Positions 10,690 through 16,001 of a stretch of 64,000 nucleotides of DNA are shown one piece after another (within the stretch, counting starts at the first letter, position 1; each line of letters begins with the position of its first letter). The notes beneath the pieces are model-generated. The model was given only the letters and a program-made list of their open reading frames with translations. It ran no database searches and had not been told where the DNA came from. The position numbers were made by a program, and so were the translations under genes. Source of the stretch: Escherichia coli (lineage in GTDB: Bacteria; Pseudomonadota; Gammaproteobacteria; Enterobacterales; Enterobacteriaceae); NCBI RefSeq assembly GCF_024298765.1, contig NZ_CP101210.1; one strand, given 5' to 3'.

Positions 10690-12219
10690 ATGAGACGGGC
10701 AATCAGCTACATCAGATTTTCAAGTGAACGACAACTAAAAGGGGACTCTGTACGCAGACAATCTAAGCTGGTCACTGACTGGCTTGATAAGAACCCTGAG
10801 TTTTACTTGGATTCATCCTTGAGCTTTAAAGATTTGGGGAAAAGTGCTTTTAGTGGTAAGCACTTGAAAGGTGGCTTAGGTGACTTTTTAACCGCTATCG
10901 AGAAAGGGCTTGTTAAAGCTGGTGATACACTACTAATCGAGAGTTTAGACCGTCTCTCACGTCAGGATATTGATATTGCTTCTGAGCTATTACGTCGTAT
11001 CTTAAGGGCTGGTGTAGATATAGTCACACTGAGCGATGGTGAACATTACACACGAGAAAGTTTAAAAGACCCGTTATCCCTGATTAAAAGCATTCTGATA
11101 ATGCAGCGGGCGCATGAGGAAAGTCTGAGGAAGTCTGAGCGTGTCCAAGCTGCATGGAACCGTAAAAAAGAACTCATCTCCGAAGGTATCAAGGTATCTA
11201 GGCGTTGTCCTGCATGGTTAAGGCTGAATGATGACCGTCGAACATTCACTATCATCCCCGATAAAGTGGAAGTTGTTAAACGAGCATTTGACCTGAGATT
11301 ACAGGGTTTAAGCTTTTGGGCTATCACCAGAACTTTAAACGATGAAGGCCACTTGTCATTGAATCAATACACACCTAAACAAAAGGGATGGTCTGATACT
11401 GCTGTAAAGAAACTACTCAGAAATCGTGCTGTGATTGGATGTTTCACACCTGCTGGACGTGAAGAAGTTCAGGGTTACTACCCCGCAATAATCAGTGAGT
11501 CACTATTCTATCGAGTACAGCAACTGAACACAGGGCAATATGGTAGGGCTTCTGTATCAAGTAATCCGCTATCAGTCAACTTGTTCAGGGGTATCATCAA
11601 ATGTTCTGAGTGTGGGGCTACTATTGTTCTTGGTGGATATGCCTTAAAACGTTTTGGGATGTACAGATGCCCTAATCGTTCAGCTAACAGGTGTAGTGCA
11701 AAGGCTATCAGTCGTAAGCAAACGGATACAACTATCCTTTACATGCTCGCATTATGCGACCGTTTTGAAACTGAAAATACTGACACTATTGATAGCCTTA
11801 AATTACAGCGTGAAGATTTGCAGCGTAAAATCTCAAAAATGGCAGAACTCGCTATTGAACTCGATGACATGACAATTATCACAGAGAAATTACGTGATAT
11901 GAAGAATGCGCTATCAAAACTCAATCATGATATCGAAGAGGAAACAAAGCGGATAAAGGCCATCACAACTGGAAGCCTCAAAGATATTGACAGGACAACA
12001 AAGGAAGGGATGATAGAGACACAGCTACTTATCAAGGGCGTACTCAAAGAAATAGTTATAGATGCCGCTAAACGTCGCTGTAAAGTGACTTTTCACAACG
12101 GTAAGGTAATTGACCTACCTATAACAGAAAACCCCTCAGAGGACGTTACAGAGGCCATACAGTCGCTTTCTGAAGTCACTGAGAGGGGTTTAATAGATGT
12201 TGATGTAGTAGCGATTTAG
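10690..12219 (+). CDS. Large serine recombinase (integrase-type)
   Basis: About 509 aa: N-terminal resolvase-type catalytic domain (AISYIRFSSERQ with the candidate Ser nucleophile; SLDRLSRQ), a Cys-rich zinc-ribbon-like segment (CSECGATIVLGG...YRCPNRSANRCS) and a C-terminal predicted coiled coil. ATG at 10690 preceded by AGGT. Confidence 0.8.
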   Translation: MRRAISYIRFSSERQLKGDSVRRQSKLVTDWLDKNPEFYLDSSLSFKDLGKSAFSGKHLKGGLGDFLTAIEKGLVKAGDTLLIESLDRLSRQDIDIASELLRRILRAGVDIVTLSDGEHYTRESLKDPLSLIKSILIMQRAHEESLRKSERVQAAWNRKKELISEGIKVSRRCPAWLRLNDDRRTFTIIPDKVEVVKRAFDLRLQGLSFWAITRTLNDEGHLSLNQYTPKQKGWSDTAVKKLLRNRAVIGCFTPAGREEVQGYYPAIISESLFYRVQQLNTGQYGRASVSSNPLSVNLFRGIIKCSECGATIVLGGYALKRFGMYRCPNRSANRCSAKAISRKQTDTTILYMLALCDRFETENTDTIDSLKLQREDLQRKISKMAELAIELDDMTIITEKLRDMKNALSKLNHDIEEETKRIKAITTGSLKDIDRTTKEGMIETQLLIKGVLKEIVIDAAKRRCKVTFHNGKVIDLPITENPSEDVTEAIQSLSEVTERGLIDVDVVAI

Positions 12220-12358
12220 TATCTCTTATTAGGATTCACTGAGTACTTTTTAAGCTTTGAAGCTACCCGACCAGCGTTACTGTTAGCATTGGTGAGGTTG
12301 GTTTTTTCAGCTTCTTCACAAAAAAGCTTCAGAGGTCTTCTTAACCATCCGCTAAGCA

Positions 12359-12402
12359 GGAGAGAGGGTGGTACATGAGAAAGAACCCTCACTTCTAAAA
12401 AG
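12359..12402 (+). repeat. Copy A of recurring element motif GAGAGAGGG-N-ACCCT-N-AAAAG
   Basis: ggagagagggtggtacatgagaaagaaccctcacttctaaaaag; contains the inverted repeat GAGGG...CCCTC; about 140 bp after the large recombinase stop. Confidence 0.5.
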
Positions 12403-12807
12403 ATTTTTTAGCTATTTTGCTTAAAACCATATCAAAAGATACATTTTATTGATTCAGGTCAAAGACAAAAGCATTGACAAAATGGTAAAATTGTTCACAT
12501 GACCTTACTTAACAGACTTTTTAAGAGCTTTTGAGAAGCTTGTTGAACAGACACTCTTTCTGGAGTGTTGTCTTTTACTTAAGAGGTTTGTTTAGATAAC
12601 TCTCAAGGCATCTCTTAAGAATCACTGTTAAGGTGATACTCTCCCTTCGGGTTATATCGTATCTCTTCTCCCGTTAGACAGTTTTTCCTAGCAACTTCAT
12701 AGTTATCTGTCAAGTGCCTTTGAAGATTCCATCAAGACCTCTGAATCTGACCTGATATAGATGCTGTGAAGGCATATTCTCTAGGTCTGTGTAGCTTACT
12801 TAGTGGG

Positions 12808-12853
12808 AAGAGAGGGATATAGTGACCATAGGGGAACCCCTCCTGTTAAAAAG
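12808..12853 (+). repeat. Copy B of the recurring element motif
   Basis: aagagagggatatagtgaccataggggaacccctcctgttaaaaag; same GAGGG...CCCTC arrangement, same orientation. Confidence 0.45.
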
Positions 12854-13356
12854 ACTACTTAGAAGTCTGAGACTTTAGTAAAATCTGTGAATATAGCTTC
12901 TCAGACGCTCTGTAACGCATTCTAAGCGATTTTACCACCTTATTTTAAGGTGGGTGGTACATCCCTATAGGTTACCCTAAAAATGGGGTTAAAACTCGCT
13001 ACAGAGCTTTCTATGAGGCTTGGTAGAGTTGCATAAATTTTACACAACACTTATTCAGCTTCTAAATTTTTTTATAAAAAATCGTAGTAACCCCTCTACA
13101 TTCCCCTTCACCGATAATCTTCAAAAATATCTATCACAGGTCTATACCTGCTAAGTACCCGTCACTACGCCTAAGTGGTCCCCTTTGCAAAATTTTAAAA
13201 TATCTATTGACTTTTTATGTGAACTGTTATAAAGACCGCTCCATCTCTTAGGCATACCGTTATAGCATACTAAAAAGGTATAGCTAACCCCCTGTAAAAA
13301 CCATACCGATTAGCCTTGTAAAACACTTTATCGGTACATTATACTCAACTCATCAA

Positions 13357-13926
13357 ATGAGTAAGGCAAATGAGTATATTATGGCTAACATTGGTTATAT
13401 CCGAGTTTCATCAATCCAGCAGATTACAGACCGTCAACTTGAAGGGGTCGTACTGGATAAGATATTTACTGATAAAGCATCTGGGAAGAATACAGACCGT
13501 CCACAACTAAAGGCTATGCTCGATTATGTTCGTGAAGGTGATGTTATCCATGTACACGACTTGTCACGTTTAGGGCGCTCTACCGTGGATGTATTAACGC
13601 TGGTGGATAAACTTTCACAGAAAGGTATCAAGGTTCACTTTCACAAAGAAGGTCTGATAACTGGTGACGATAACCCCACGTCTAAGATGATTCTCACAAT
13701 CTTTTCAGCAGTGGCTGAAGCTGAACGTAAAATGATGCTTGAGCGTCAACGAGAAGGCTATGAAGCTGCTAAAGCTGCTGGTCGTGTAGTTGGAAGGGGT
13801 AACGGTAAAGCGGTTGACAGAGAAGGTATTAAAGCTGCTCTTGCTGCTGGTGGTTCAATCGCTAAAGTAGCCGCTCAATTCAACGTTGCCAAGTCAACTG
13901 TACAGCGTATTAAAGCTGAAGATTAA
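13357..13926 (+). CDS. Small serine recombinase, resolvase/invertase type with C-terminal HTH
   Basis: 189 aa; GYIRVSSIQQ catalytic motif, IFTDKASG and LSRLGRS motifs typical of Tn3/gamma-delta-type resolvases, C-terminal HTH (IAKVAAQFNVAKSTVQRI). Alternative start ATG at 13381. Confidence 0.82.
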   Translation: MSKANEYIMANIGYIRVSSIQQITDRQLEGVVLDKIFTDKASGKNTDRPQLKAMLDYVREGDVIHVHDLSRLGRSTVDVLTLVDKLSQKGIKVHFHKEGLITGDDNPTSKMILTIFSAVAEAERKMMLERQREGYEAAKAAGRVVGRGNGKAVDREGIKAALAAGGSIAKVAAQFNVAKSTVQRIKAED

Positions 13927-13939
13927 GTCAGGAAATACA

Positions 13940-14623
13940 TTAGATTTTTCTTCCAAATAAACTTGGGAGATTCTTACGGTTTCTTGCTTGCATCATTATT
14001 TCTGGGCTAACAAGTTTTTTTAATTCGCTTCTGTACTCATCAATAGAACACTCATCCGCAACAAGTTTTGAAATCAGGTCTTCAATAGACATAACATCTT
14101 GTTGCAGGAAATCAAGTTCACGAGACAAGTGCTTTTTTTGATTCTCTAACTTTCCTATCTCAGCATTTAAGTTATCTACATCTGTCGCCAATTTCTCTGC
14201 CTGAGATTTCAAATTACTTGTATCTTCTTTTTCTCTTTCGATAAGGTTTTTTTGTTTCTCAATCTTCAACTTTGACGTCAGTCTAGCTGACTCTTCAAGA
14301 TTTTCAGCTTCTACTTTTTGTCTTGCTCGCCATGCGGTTGCCTTGATTTGAAGTAGTGTTACAAGGTTGCTGAAGTAAGGGAAAAAGGTCGCCAAAATGA
14401 ACCCTAGCCCTACGGGATAGCATAATGTTTTTAGATAGAAGTCTTCCGTCGATGTGATTTGTTGAATACGAGTAACAACCGAAGCCTCACTAAGACACAT
14501 GATAGCAATGCTTTTCCAGTTAAATCCCACCCATGACAAAATGATGTAGCCCCATAAAGGGTTAGCTACTCGTTCCTTCAACGCCTGCTTAACTGATTCC
14601 GTGATACTTTCTTCACTACTCAC
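13940..14623 (-). CDS. Hypothetical protein with two N-terminal hydrophobic segments and a C-terminal predicted coiled coil
   Basis: 227 aa ORF confined to the insertion; hydrophobic segments WGYIILSWVGFNW and PVGLGFILATFFPYF, then a K/E-rich heptad-like region; no family recognised. Confidence 0.6.
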   Translation of the reverse strand: MSSEESITESVKQALKERVANPLWGYIILSWVGFNWKSIAIMCLSEASVVTRIQQITSTEDFYLKTLCYPVGLGFILATFFPYFSNLVTLLQIKATAWRARQKVEAENLEESARLTSKLKIEKQKNLIEREKEDTSNLKSQAEKLATDVDNLNAEIGKLENQKKHLSRELDFLQQDVMSIEDLISKLVADECSIDEYRSELKKLVSPEIMMQARNRKNLPSLFGRKI

Positions 14624-14714
14624 AATTACTGCTCCATAGAAAACTCTGGTTTGAGAAATTTTAATGCGAATCCAATCAGTTAGATAGACCTGTAAATAGC
14701 AATTTTATAGAAGT

Positions 14715-14756
14715 CGAGAGAGGGATGACTAACACCCTGCATAGTTTCCTGAAAAG
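14715..14756 (+). repeat. Copy D of the recurring element motif
   Basis: cgagagagggatgactaacaccctgcatagtttcctgaaaag; same orientation; about 95 bp upstream of the minus-strand 227 aa gene start. Confidence 0.45.
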
Positions 14757-14954
14757 AGACTTCGCATATTATCTATATATTTCAATAAGTTATGCTAAAA
14801 AGGAACTATACCAATACTGCATAGATTCTGCGTAAAACTGCTTGGATACTTGGAAATCCACCATTAAATTGCATAGTCATTCACCTGATAAAGCCTGTTA
14901 TTAACAGGTGATAGGATTCGGATGTTCTCATAGTGTATTTAGGGAATTAATATC

Positions 14955-16001
14955 AGCATTACATTTTTATTTTCGGCCATCGCCTCACCGTTTTGGGGTG
15001 GACTCGCCGACCGTAAAGGCCGAAAACTCATGCTATTACGCTCTGCCCTCGGCATGGGCATCGTGATGGTGTTGATGGGACTGGCACAAAATATCTGGCA
15101 GTTTTTGATCCTGCGGGCGCTTCTTGGGTTACTTGGCGGATTTGTCCCCAACGCTAATGCTCTTATCGCCACACAAGTACCGCGTAATAAAAGCGGCTGG
15201 GCGCTGGGTACGCTCTCCACAGGCGGCGTTAGTGGTGCGTTGCTCGGCCCAATGGCTGGCGGCCTGCTCGCCGATAGCTACGGCTTACGTCCGGTATTCT
15301 TTATTACCGCCAGTGTGCTCATACTCTGCTTTTTCGTCACCCTGTTCTGCATCAGAGAAAAATTCCAGCCGGTCAGCAAAAAAGAGATGCTGCACATGCG
15401 GGAAGTGGTGACATCACTTAAAAACCCGAAACTGGTACTCAGCCTGTTTGTCACCACGTTAATCATCCAGGTGGCGACAGGCTCAATTGCCCCCATTCTG
15501 ACGCTGTATGTCCGCGAACTGGCGGGTAACGTCAGTAACGTCGCCTTTATCAGTGGCATGATCGCCTCGGTGCCAGGCGTGGCGGCTCTGCTAAGCGCAC
15601 CACGACTCGGCAAACTTGGCGATCGAATCGGACCCGAAAAGATCCTGATTACAGCGCTGATCTTTTCTGTACTGCTGTTGATCCCAATGTCTTACGTTCA
15701 GACGCCATTGCAACTTGGGATTTTACGTTTTTTGCTCGGTGCCGCCGATGGTGCACTACTCCCCGCCGTACAGACACTGTTGGTTTACAACTCGAGCAAC
15801 CAGATCGCCGGGCGTATCTTCAGCTATAACCAATCGTTTCGTGATATTGGCAACGTTACCGGACCATTGATGGGAGCAGCGATTTCAGCGAACTACGGTT
15901 TCAGAGCGGTATTTCTCGTCACCGCTGGCGTCGTGTTATTCAACGCAGTCTATTCATGGAACAGTCTACGTCGTCGTCGAATACCCCAGGTATCGAACTG
16001 A
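14955..16001 (+). pseudogene. mdtG: mdtG 3' fragment (C-terminal ~348 codons), separated from its 5' part by the insertion
   Basis: In frame from 14955: [43 protein letters not shown]... to ...[13 protein letters not shown], recognised as the remainder of MdtG; no start codon or RBS in native context. Confidence 0.85.

What the first reader, a model, noticed from the sequence alone, without database searches (positions are those of the whole stretch)
10690..12219. Large serine recombinase at the left edge of the insertion, candidate integrase
About 509 aa with the architecture of large serine integrases: N-terminal catalytic domain with the Ser in YIRFSSERQ, a Cys-rich zinc-ribbon-like segment and a C-terminal coiled coil. 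It starts about 35 bp inside the left junction, the usual position for an integrase next to its att site.
Basis: partly seen in the sequence, partly recalled or inferred. Interest (0 to 1): 0.6.

Follow-up and report, generated by a model that had tools for sequence, protein, structure and literature searches.

The report
Serine integrase of decayed mobile island
This is a real, intact large serine recombinase that inserted a small, now gutted mobile island into the E. coli mdtG gene. The enzyme is ordinary, but its island family is common, seems undescribed, and looks like a parasite of Felix-O1-type phages.

Summary
Window 10690-12219 (+) encodes a 509-aa large serine recombinase (LSR). It has resolvase, recombinase and zinc-ribbon domains, an invariant catalytic set (Y7 R9 S11 D87 R88 R91), four invariant Cys, and a predicted fold matching solved serine integrases.

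It starts 39 bp inside a 4,306-bp, 40%-GC insertion (10651-14956) that splits mdtG at a 4-bp TCAG core. Joining the flanks restores K-12 MdtG exactly. The joined element ends form a dyad-symmetric attP centred on TCAG.

The site is empty in 5,393 of 5,415 E. coli genomes. The element is an internally deleted member of an ~11-kb island family whose conserved right end occurs in 559 of 5,426 genomes. Members carry diverged LSRs at the same edge but sit in mdtG, tonB, wrbA or yecE.

Full-size members carry a tape-measure gene and a Dit-like gene matching Ounavirinae (Felix-O1-like) phages of the same host genus. They also carry a copy of sequence that straddles a Felixounavirus terminal-repeat boundary. 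One metagenome contig is a host-free, circularly permuted island with the predicted yecE-type attP.

Verdict: an ordinary new LSR integrase in a decayed island. The family may be an undescribed phage-satellite lineage, which is inferred, not shown.

The parts
10469..10650 (+). 5' part of the host gene mdtG (codons 1-60), cut by the insertion; the reading frame runs on to a stop at 10664-10666 inside the element
   Evidence: 98.8% identical to K-12 mdtG; joined to 14957-16001 it restores a MdtG identical to K-12's.
10625..10675 (.). attL: host half-site, then the TCAG core (10647-10650), then the element half-site TATAATGGGTCCCTAAACAC (10651-10670)
   Evidence: identity to K-12 ends after TCAG; the element half-site is conserved in three other mdtG islands.
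10690..12219 (+). Large serine recombinase gene (509 aa), the candidate integrase; catalytic Ser is S11
12219..12314 (-). Remnant of a Dit-like tail gene (last 32 codons); marks the left breakpoint of an internal deletion of about 7 kb
   Evidence: 96.9% identical to residues 231-262 of the Dit-like protein of island L001; similarity to L001 stops at 12315.
12220..13356 (.). ORF-free stretch (no ORF above 58 aa). Positions 12394 onward are shared at 80-89% identity with the wrbA-type and tonB-type islands
   Evidence: no Rfam family matched.
13123..13204 (+). Segment similar to Ounavirinae phage DNA; in Salmonella phage SeKF_63 the matching sequence straddles the inner boundary of the 613-bp direct terminal repeat
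   Evidence: about 76% identity over 82 nt, including a 25/25 identical block. The same motif occurs in a Pectobacterium island and its phage (28/28).
13357..13926 (+). Small serine recombinase (189 aa, resolvase/invertase type), sitting in a variable cassette slot
   Evidence: 97% identical to the one in the wrbA-type island L005. Other islands carry 34-40% identical recombinases in either orientation, or an HNH-AP2 endonuclease, at this position.
13940..14623 (-). 227-aa ORF of unknown function; extra cargo absent from most relatives
   Evidence: matches PHROG families of unknown function only; PADLOC hits are low-scoring (12-21 bits), which I read as coiled-coil noise; a 33% identical homologue is in island L022. 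My reading of the sequence is an N-terminal membrane segment followed by a coiled coil.
14679..14880 (.). Conserved non-coding right-end region of the island family; it lies upstream of the LSR gene once the element is circular
   Evidence: 79-91% identical in the other island types; present in 559 of 5,426 E. coli genomes and unannotated there.
14930..14975 (.). attR: element half-site GTGTATTTAGGGAATTAATA (14934-14952), then the TCAG core (14953-14956), then the host half-site
14957..16001 (+). 3' part of mdtG

Best explanation
Window 10690-12219 encodes an intact large serine recombinase that acted as the integrase of the 4.3-kb element splitting mdtG.

Mechanism (inferred from how solved serine integrases work): dimers bind a ~44-bp attP, GTGTATTTAGGGAATTAATATCAG|TATAATGGGTCCCTAAACAC, formed by the joined element ends. 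They also bind an attB inside mdtG codon ~60. The sites synapse, and S11 cuts all four strands at a 2-bp overlap inside the shared TCAG. Subunit rotation and religation then give the attL and attR seen here. Excision would need the same enzyme plus a directionality factor, and the element does not visibly encode one.

The element is not a whole mobile unit. It is an internally deleted, mosaic member of an ~11-kb island family with this layout: LSR | Dit-like | tape measure | small ORFs | HNH or Rep-like/Dam | ORF-free region | small recombinase or HNH-AP2 | conserved right end. It has lost the tail-gene and replication modules. It keeps the LSR, both att halves, part of the ORF-free region with the phage-terminus-like segment, and a small recombinase.

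Shown here: the protein's family and residues, the junctions, the empty sites, the family relationships and the deletion.
Inferred: catalysis, the crossover dinucleotide, and present-day mobility.
For: Protein:
- Three LSR Pfam domains.
- Invariant Y7 R9 S11 D87 R88 R91 and four Cys in 22 homologues.
- LDRLSR aligns with the gamma-delta resolvase active-site motif.
- The AlphaFold model (pLDDT 78) matches full-length serine integrase structures 9dxh, PhiC31 9tep, Bxb1 9iu2 and LI 4kis at probability 1.0.
- dN/dS is 0.11-0.16 among mdtG-type copies.

Site:
- A precise insertion with a 4-bp TCAG core. Joining the flanks restores MdtG identical to K-12's.
- The reconstructed attP has 15 of 22 dyad matches centred in TCAG. 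Its half-sites are conserved in three other mdtG islands.
- attB is intact in 5,393 of 5,415 genomes.

Family:
- LSRs that are 34-69% identical sit 39-89 bp inside the left junction of islands in tonB, wrbA and yecE. Each has its own core and a dyad attP.
- Gene order next to the LSR is conserved in nine IMG/VR loci.
- Metagenome contig L099 (11,473 bp) has no host DNA, is circularly permuted, and carries exactly the predicted yecE-type attP in front of an LSR 69% identical to this one.

Deletion:
- The last 32 codons of the Dit-like gene remain at 12219-12314.
- The element is a mosaic of an mdtG-type left part and a wrbA-type middle.
Against: - No recombination was observed for this protein.
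- The mdtG-type attP junction was not found in viral or metagenome contigs.
- No directionality factor, replication gene or packaging partner is present in the 4.3-kb element.
- The consensus scan found no + strand promoter in the 39 bp upstream of the ATG or in the right end 14679-14956. Expression in the integrated state would therefore depend on read-through from mdtG.
- LSR genes of relatives are often broken by IS elements, so decay is common.
- The nearest phage homologue, YbcK (37% identity), lies at about 39-41 kb of ~49-kb lambdoid phage records. From my own knowledge it is not known to be their integrase.
Confidence: 0.85

Rival explanations
1. Fixed scar. The LSR did insert the ancestor, but this 4.3-kb derivative is now immobile and inherited vertically, and the LSR gene is intact only because the deletion is recent. 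This concerns present-day activity and is compatible with the best explanation of origin.
For: About 7 kb, including the tail genes and any Rep-like gene, is gone. The same mini-element is in only 6-8 of 5,426 genomes at 99.6-100% identity, some with IS insertions. No mdtG-type attP junction was found. No directionality factor is evident.
Against: The ORF is full length with every catalytic and zinc residue. Both att halves are intact. An LSR plus att sites is enough for integration if a circle forms. The carriers come from chicken, pig, dog and human isolates, although I did not test whether they are related.
Confidence: 0.5
2. Accessory recombinase. The protein is a YbcK-like or Ccr/XisF-like enzyme doing inversion, resolution or some other job, and the insertion into mdtG was made by another mechanism.
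For: The best phage homologue is YbcK, which lies well inside lambdoid phage records. The element also encodes a second, small serine recombinase. NCBIfam gives only sub-threshold matches to XisF and CcrA/B/C.
Against: There is no transposase, tyrosine integrase or target-site duplication. The junction has the LSR signature of a minimal core inside a dyad attP. In four island types the target gene changes together with the LSR sequence, while the small recombinase is a swappable cassette that can be replaced by an HNH-AP2 gene. The L099 attP matches the LSR-based prediction exactly.
Confidence: 0.05
3. Domesticated gene-interrupting element. Like the skin element with SpoIVCA, or the fdxN element with XisF, the recombinase excises the element under some condition to rebuild mdtG as a regulatory switch.
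For: The insertion is intragenic and excision would restore mdtG perfectly. The LSR is co-oriented with mdtG and could be read through from its promoter. There is a weak XisF match.
Against: Only about 22 of 5,415 E. coli genomes have the site occupied. Relatives sit in unrelated genes. The cargo is phage-like, not a fixed developmental system.
Confidence: 0.03

Closest known systems
Characterised large serine integrases (Listeria A118/LI integrase, Bxb1, PhiC31)
   Same: Same four-part architecture: catalytic domain, recombinase domain, zinc ribbon, and embedded coiled coil. Same catalytic residues. Short dyad attP sharing only a few central bases with attB. Fold match at probability 1.0.
   Different: Only 14-19% sequence identity in the structural alignments. 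The host is a gamma-proteobacterium. The cargo is a small island rather than a complete temperate phage. No directionality factor is known.
YbcK, the large serine recombinase of the E. coli DLP12 prophage and lambdoid phages (4A7, Perceval)
   Same: Closest hit among deposited phage genomes: 37% identity over 99% of the length, and the same size.
   Different: The YbcK gene lies at about 39-41 kb of ~49-kb phage records, not at an element edge. From my own knowledge those phages integrate with a tyrosine integrase and YbcK has no assigned function or att site. It is a paralogous clade, not the same protein.
PLE of Vibrio cholerae (satellite of the virulent myovirus ICP1, integrated by an LSR whose excision factor is supplied by the phage; PMC9638900, PMC9410903)
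   Same: A small chromosomal island with an LSR integrase. It shows links to a virulent myovirus rather than a temperate phage, and full-size relatives have a replication-initiator-like gene with iterons.
   Different: I did not compare with PLE genes, and only the LSR class is shared as far as tested. These islands carry tape-measure and Dit-like genes copied from the phage lineage, which to my knowledge are not reported for PLE. Induction, helper dependence and interference are untested. The window's copy lacks most of the island.
PICI, cfPICI and PICMI phage satellites (PMC10803314; bioRxiv 10.1101/2022.09.14.508007)
   Same: Size range of about 11 kb, site-specific integration, an incomplete set of virion genes, and a variable cargo slot.
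   Different: As I recall, those families use tyrosine integrases with AlpA-type regulators, and terminase-small or capsid genes. None of these was seen here.
Gene-interrupting elements excised by LSRs (SpoIVCA/skin, XisF/fdxN element)
   Same: The insertion is intragenic, and excision would precisely restore the host gene.
   Different: It is rare and strain-variable rather than fixed in the species. XisF scores 49.7 bits against a cutoff of 375.

Membership tests
Large serine recombinases (serine integrases) | N-terminal resolvase-type catalytic domain with the Ser nucleophile and conserved Arg/Asp residues | tested here: met
   PF00239 E 7e-16. Y7 R9 S11 D87 R88 R91 are invariant in 22 sequences. 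LDRLSR aligns with the LDRLGR motif of gamma-delta resolvase.
Large serine recombinases (serine integrases) | Recombinase domain (PF07508) after the long alpha-E helix | tested here: met
   PF07508 E 2e-17, residues 190-280. The model has helix 128-164 followed by a mixed alpha/beta domain.
Large serine recombinases (serine integrases) | Zinc-ribbon domain with four Cys ligands | tested here: met
   PF13408 E 2e-6. C305, C308, C327 and C335 are invariant.
Large serine recombinases (serine integrases) | Coiled-coil motif embedded in the zinc-ribbon domain | tested here: met
   Helices 364-390 and 394-426 in the model. Residues 244-460 align with the zinc-ribbon and coiled-coil part of 4kis. Fold hits cover full-length integrases.
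Large serine recombinases (serine integrases) | Short attP with imperfect dyad symmetry sharing only a central few bases with attB; no long direct repeats | tested here: met
   The TCAG core is the only shared sequence. attP has 15 of 22 dyad matches centred in the core. The same design is seen in the tonB, wrbA and yecE types.
Large serine recombinases (serine integrases) | Catalyses unidirectional attP x attB recombination, reversed by a directionality factor | not testable with these tools
   Indirect evidence only: contig L099 shows that a 69%-identical relative's island exists with the predicted attP and no host flanks.
Phage satellites (PLE-like sense) | Excised circular or concatemeric form exists | tested here: inconclusive
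   Found for the yecE-type relative (L099). Not found for the mdtG type. A collapsed tandem array cannot be excluded for L099.
Phage satellites (PLE-like sense) | Own replication initiator and origin | tested here: not met
   The window's element has none. Full-size relatives have an HTH protein whose gene contains 3-4 iterons that differ between islands, but Pfam gives only a weak HTH_36 hit.
Phage satellites (PLE-like sense) | Uses a helper phage's virion and packaging machinery | not testable with these tools
   Indirect evidence. The Dit-like protein is ~70% identical to Ounavirinae of the same host genus in both E. coli and Pectobacterium. The N-terminal part of the tape-measure protein is homologous. 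A shared segment spans a phage terminal-repeat boundary.
NCBIfam equivalogs XisF, CcrA, CcrB, CcrC | Score above the curated cutoff | tested here: not met
   49.7 against 375, 42.9 against 700, 25.5 against 900, and 27.1 against 900 bits.

The most novel reading that the evidence does not exclude
The LSR belongs to an undescribed family of ~11-kb chromosomal islands of Enterobacterales. The family's conserved right end is in about 10% of complete E. coli genomes, and members sit in mdtG, tonB, wrbA or yecE.

In this reading the islands are satellites of virulent Felix-O1-like (Ounavirinae) phages. They would integrate by LSRs, replicate from a Rep gene with internal iterons, and carry their own tape-measure and distal-tail proteins copied from the helper lineage. 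They would be cut or packaged through a copy of the helper's terminal-repeat boundary sequence. The window holds a gutted member.
Probability: 0.5. Interest if true: 0.8.

Novelty: new member of a known kind. Interest (0 to 1): 0.45.

Why it matters
For the finding itself the value is modest but concrete. It is a native E. coli large serine integrase with base-precise attB and attP. Three sister enzymes target tonB, wrbA and yecE. Together they form a possible set of orthogonal integration tools, and they explain rare mdtG-null alleles.

The context matters more. The island family is frequent in E. coli, and every member I inspected is annotated only with generic product names such as 'recombinase family protein', 'phage baseplate protein' and 'tape measure protein'. 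It sits in or next to the wrbA and yecE sites that lambdoid prophages also occupy in two of the loci examined.

The family also shows three independent links to Felix-O1-type virulent phages, which from my own knowledge are widely used for typing and biocontrol. If the islands are satellites or decoys of those phages, they would be the first such system I know of for this phage group. They could then influence phage-therapy outcomes in about one strain in ten.

Tried and rejected
- **Rfam** on 10400-15200 gave nothing credible. tRNA and tmRNA scans gave none.
- **Repeat scan** of the element found no hix/res-like inverted repeats flanking the small recombinase and no iterons.
- **Promoter scan** found no + strand site upstream of the LSR. 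The TTGACT/TATAAA pair at 13207-13233 has only a 15-nt spacer by my count, so I do not call it a promoter.
- **PADLOC** gave no defence-system match for any island protein. The 227-aa ORF had only low-scoring hits, which I read as coiled-coil noise.
- **PHROG and Pfam** gave nothing for the 234-, 185-, 107-, 94- and 71-aa island proteins.
- **The mdtG-type attP junction** was absent from viral and metagenome contigs. The yecE-type junction was absent from viral contigs.
- **A database-wide search** with the Pectobacterium island's ORF-free DNA found no Pectobacterium phage. Only a local comparison found the 28-nt identity.
- **Eight literature searches** found no description of these islands.
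- **A prophage remnant of a temperate phage** was considered and set aside. The same ~11-kb gene order recurs at four sites with LSRs only 34-69% identical.
- **A structured RNA spanning the ORF-free region** was considered. Only one ~125-nt hairpin has any support, and it rests on two lineages.

Full report
**Setting**

The window is E. coli chromosome (yceI, trhO, lpxL, mdtG). mdtG is split. Its first 182 bases end at 10650 and the rest resumes at 14957. The intervening 4,306 bp are 39.8% GC against 51.3% in the flanks. Identity to K-12 stops after TCAG on the left (10647-10650) and starts at TCAG on the right (14953-14956). Joining the two host parts gives a 408-aa MdtG identical to K-12's.

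**The protein**

The ORF at 10690-12219 (+) encodes 509 aa. Pfam finds Resolvase (7e-16), Recombinase (2e-17) and Zn_ribbon_recom (2e-6) in the order expected of a large serine recombinase. In an alignment of 22 homologues that are 31-87% identical to it, Y7, R9, S11, D87, R88, R91 and the four cysteines C305, C308, C327 and C335 are invariant. LDRLSR aligns with the LDRLGR active-site motif of gamma-delta resolvase. Residues 244-460 align with the zinc-ribbon and coiled-coil part of the A118/LI integrase.

An AlphaFold model built on that alignment (mean pLDDT 78) hits full-length serine integrase complexes, PhiC31, Bxb1 and LI integrase at probability 1.0. The catalytic domain alone also hits resolvases. 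Copies of the gene in three mdtG islands differ mainly at synonymous sites, with dN/dS of 0.11-0.16. NCBIfam equivalogs for XisF and CcrA/B/C are far below cutoff. The closest protein in deposited phages is YbcK at 37% identity. It is therefore a new, uncharacterised member of the LSR family. Databases call it only 'recombinase family protein'.

**Is it the integrase of this insertion?**

The ATG is 39 bp inside the left junction. Joining the element's right and left ends gives GTGTATTTAGGGAATTAATATCAG|TATAATGGGTCCCTAAACAC. This imperfect palindrome has 15 of 22 arm positions matching, and its centre falls inside TCAG. That is the design of LSR attP sites: only a few central bases are shared with attB and there are no long repeats. 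The half-sites are conserved with one to three changes in three other mdtG islands.

The attB is intact in 5,393 of 5,415 E. coli genomes that have the locus, so about 22 are occupied. Related islands carry LSRs 34% (wrbA type) and 67-69% (yecE type) identical to this one, and a further LSR in the tonB type. Each sits 39-89 bp inside the left junction, but in different genes. The cores are TCAAGGGTCATTG at the tonB start codon, AAAGCAC[C/T]AG in the wrbA 5' end, and TGATTTT in yecE. Each has its own dyad attP. The target changes with the LSR, while the second, small recombinase is a swappable cassette.

The mdtG-type attP junction was not found in viral or metagenome collections. The yecE-type junction predicted from an integrated copy was found once, in an 11,473-bp metagenome contig (L099). 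That contig has no host DNA and is circularly permuted, with one gene split across its ends. It carries the right end, attP, and an LSR 69% identical to this one, followed by the rest of the island. Its 3' end is a Nextera adapter, so strict circularity is not proven. It is still direct natural evidence that these islands leave the chromosome at exactly the predicted crossover.

**What the element is**

It is a remnant. The last 32 codons of a Dit-like tail gene survive at 12219-12314 on the minus strand, directly after the LSR stop. Full-size relatives (8-15 kb at mdtG; ~11 kb elsewhere) have this order:

- LSR
- Dit-like protein (PF21821 in the Pectobacterium homologue; annotated 'baseplate')
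- a 680-730-aa tape-measure protein
- conserved 71-, ~235- and 107-aa ORFs
- either HNH plus small ORFs, or an HTH protein plus a Dam methylase
- a 0.5-2 kb ORF-free stretch
- a small serine recombinase or an HNH-AP2 endonuclease
- a conserved ~200-bp right end

This layout rests. The window's copy has the mdtG-type LSR and att halves. Its middle is wrbA-type: the small recombinase is 97% identical to L005's. It also carries an extra 227-aa ORF. The same mini-element is in 6-8 genomes. The conserved right end is present in 559 of 5,426 complete E. coli genomes, with up to three copies per genome. LSR homologues occur across Enterobacterales.

**Links to Felix-O1-like phages**

There are three independent links.

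1. The island Dit-like protein is ~70% identical to the gene that follows the tape-measure gene in Ounavirinae coliphages. The island tape-measure protein shares its N-terminal ~500 residues with the phage's. In Pectobacterium aquaticum a related island (LSR 47% identical) has a Dit-like protein 71.5% identical to Pectobacterium Ounavirinae, but only 40-55% identical to the Yersinia, Hafnia, E. coli and Salmonella phage homologues. The island genes therefore track the phages of their own host genus.

2. Window 13123-13204 is ~76% identical to ORF-free DNA of Ounavirinae. Salmonella phage SeKF_63 has identical first and last 613 bp, which is a direct terminal repeat. The match spans its inner boundary: a 25/25 identical block lies inside the repeat and AAAAATATCT lies outside it. 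The phage REP10 record starts at nearly the same place relative to the match, and Felixounavirus genomes are reported to have direct terminal repeats (PMC11737134). All island types carry this segment. The Pectobacterium island shares a 28/28 identical version of the same motif with the ORF-free region of phage Arno18. About 1e-8 such matches would be expected by chance.

3. In full-size mdtG/yecE-type islands, the HTH-protein gene contains 3-4 iterons that differ between islands. This is the usual signature of a replication initiator with an internal origin, but Pfam support is weak.

Together these observations suggest islands that excise, replicate and exploit or interfere with Ounavirinae virions. 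That is comparable in lifestyle to PLE and ICP1, where the satellite also uses an LSR (PMC9638900). No helper dependence has been shown. The shared motif could equally be a regulatory site. I found no paper describing the family.

**Mechanism and its status**

- Shown: the protein's family and residues, exact junctions, attP architecture, empty sites, family-wide co-variation of LSR and target, the deletion, and one natural attP junction in a relative.
- Inferred: S11-mediated double-strand cleavage at a 2-bp overlap within TCAG with subunit rotation; the need for a directionality factor, possibly phage-encoded; and expression by read-through from mdtG when integrated, or from the right end when circular. 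No promoter was detected in either place.
- Unknown: whether this gutted copy can still move.

**Verdict**

The LSR is an ordinary new member of a well-known enzyme family. The added value is the precise att sites and the recognition that it belongs to a frequent, apparently undescribed island family with a plausible but unproven satellite relationship to Felix-O1-like phages.

Noticed in passing
window 13123-13204: An 82-nt segment ~76% identical to Ounavirinae phage DNA. In phage SeKF_63 the matching sequence straddles the inner edge of the 613-bp direct terminal repeat. The core motif GCAAAATTTTAAAATATCT recurs in a Pectobacterium island and in Pectobacterium phage Arno18 (28/28). It could be a terminase or packaging signal, or a regulatory site.
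   Followed up: partly
window 12220-13356: 1.1 kb with no ORF above 58 aa. Positions 12394 onward are conserved at 80-89% with the wrbA-type and tonB-type islands. No Rfam family, tRNA or iterons were found.
   Followed up: partly
window 12901-13023: A ~125-nt long hairpin (consensus -33 kcal/mol). It is on the + strand here and in L006, but on the - strand between the HNH and 107-aa genes in eight other islands. Five pairs show compensatory changes, but these come from only two lineages, so support for a structured RNA is weak.
   Followed up: partly
window 13357-13926: Small serine recombinase (189 aa) in a cassette slot. Other islands carry recombinases only 34-40% identical, in either orientation, or an HNH-AP2 homing-type endonuclease at the same position. 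Its substrate sites were not found.
   Followed up: partly
window 13940-14623 (-): A 227-aa ORF, which I read as having an N-terminal membrane segment followed by a coiled coil. It matches only PHROG families of unknown function and is absent from most relatives. A 33% identical homologue is in L022 and a similar coiled-coil ORF is in L021. It may be defence or exclusion cargo.
   Followed up: partly
window 12219-12314 (-): The last 32 codons of a Dit-like tail gene, 97% identical to island L001. This is the scar of a deletion of about 7 kb.
   Followed up: yes
window 14679-14880: A non-coding right-end block conserved at 79-91% across island types. It is present in 559 of 5,426 E. coli genomes and unannotated in all rows inspected. 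It lies just upstream of the LSR gene in the circular form, so it may be its control region.
   Followed up: partly
window 10651-10656: The first six bases of the element are a perfect TATAAT, 34 nt upstream of the LSR ATG, but there is no good -35 element in either the attL or the attP context. The tonB, wrbA and yecE types begin with TATTGT, TATTCT and TATTAG instead.
   Followed up: no
L099 1-11473 (metagenome contig ERZ1090866 NODE-760): A host-free, circularly permuted yecE-type island with attP at 2945-2973. Four TGACATTTTGTCA-like iterons lie at 37-117 inside the Rep-like gene that is split across the contig ends. The contig's 3' end is a Nextera adapter.
   Followed up: partly
L005 1-3000; L021 8206-10001: The wrbA-type and yecE-type islands lie directly beside lambdoid prophage DNA at the same host gene: tail-fibre genes in L005, and a 437-aa ORF I read as a tyrosine integrase in L021. 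From my own knowledge wrbA and yecE are classic Stx-phage sites. IMG/VR prophage calls merge the two elements.
   Followed up: no
L006 262-274 and 14056-14068: The tonB-type island inserts at the tonB start codon: the 13-bp core contains the ATG. This separates tonB from its upstream region, so tonB expression would then depend on the island's left end.
   Followed up: no
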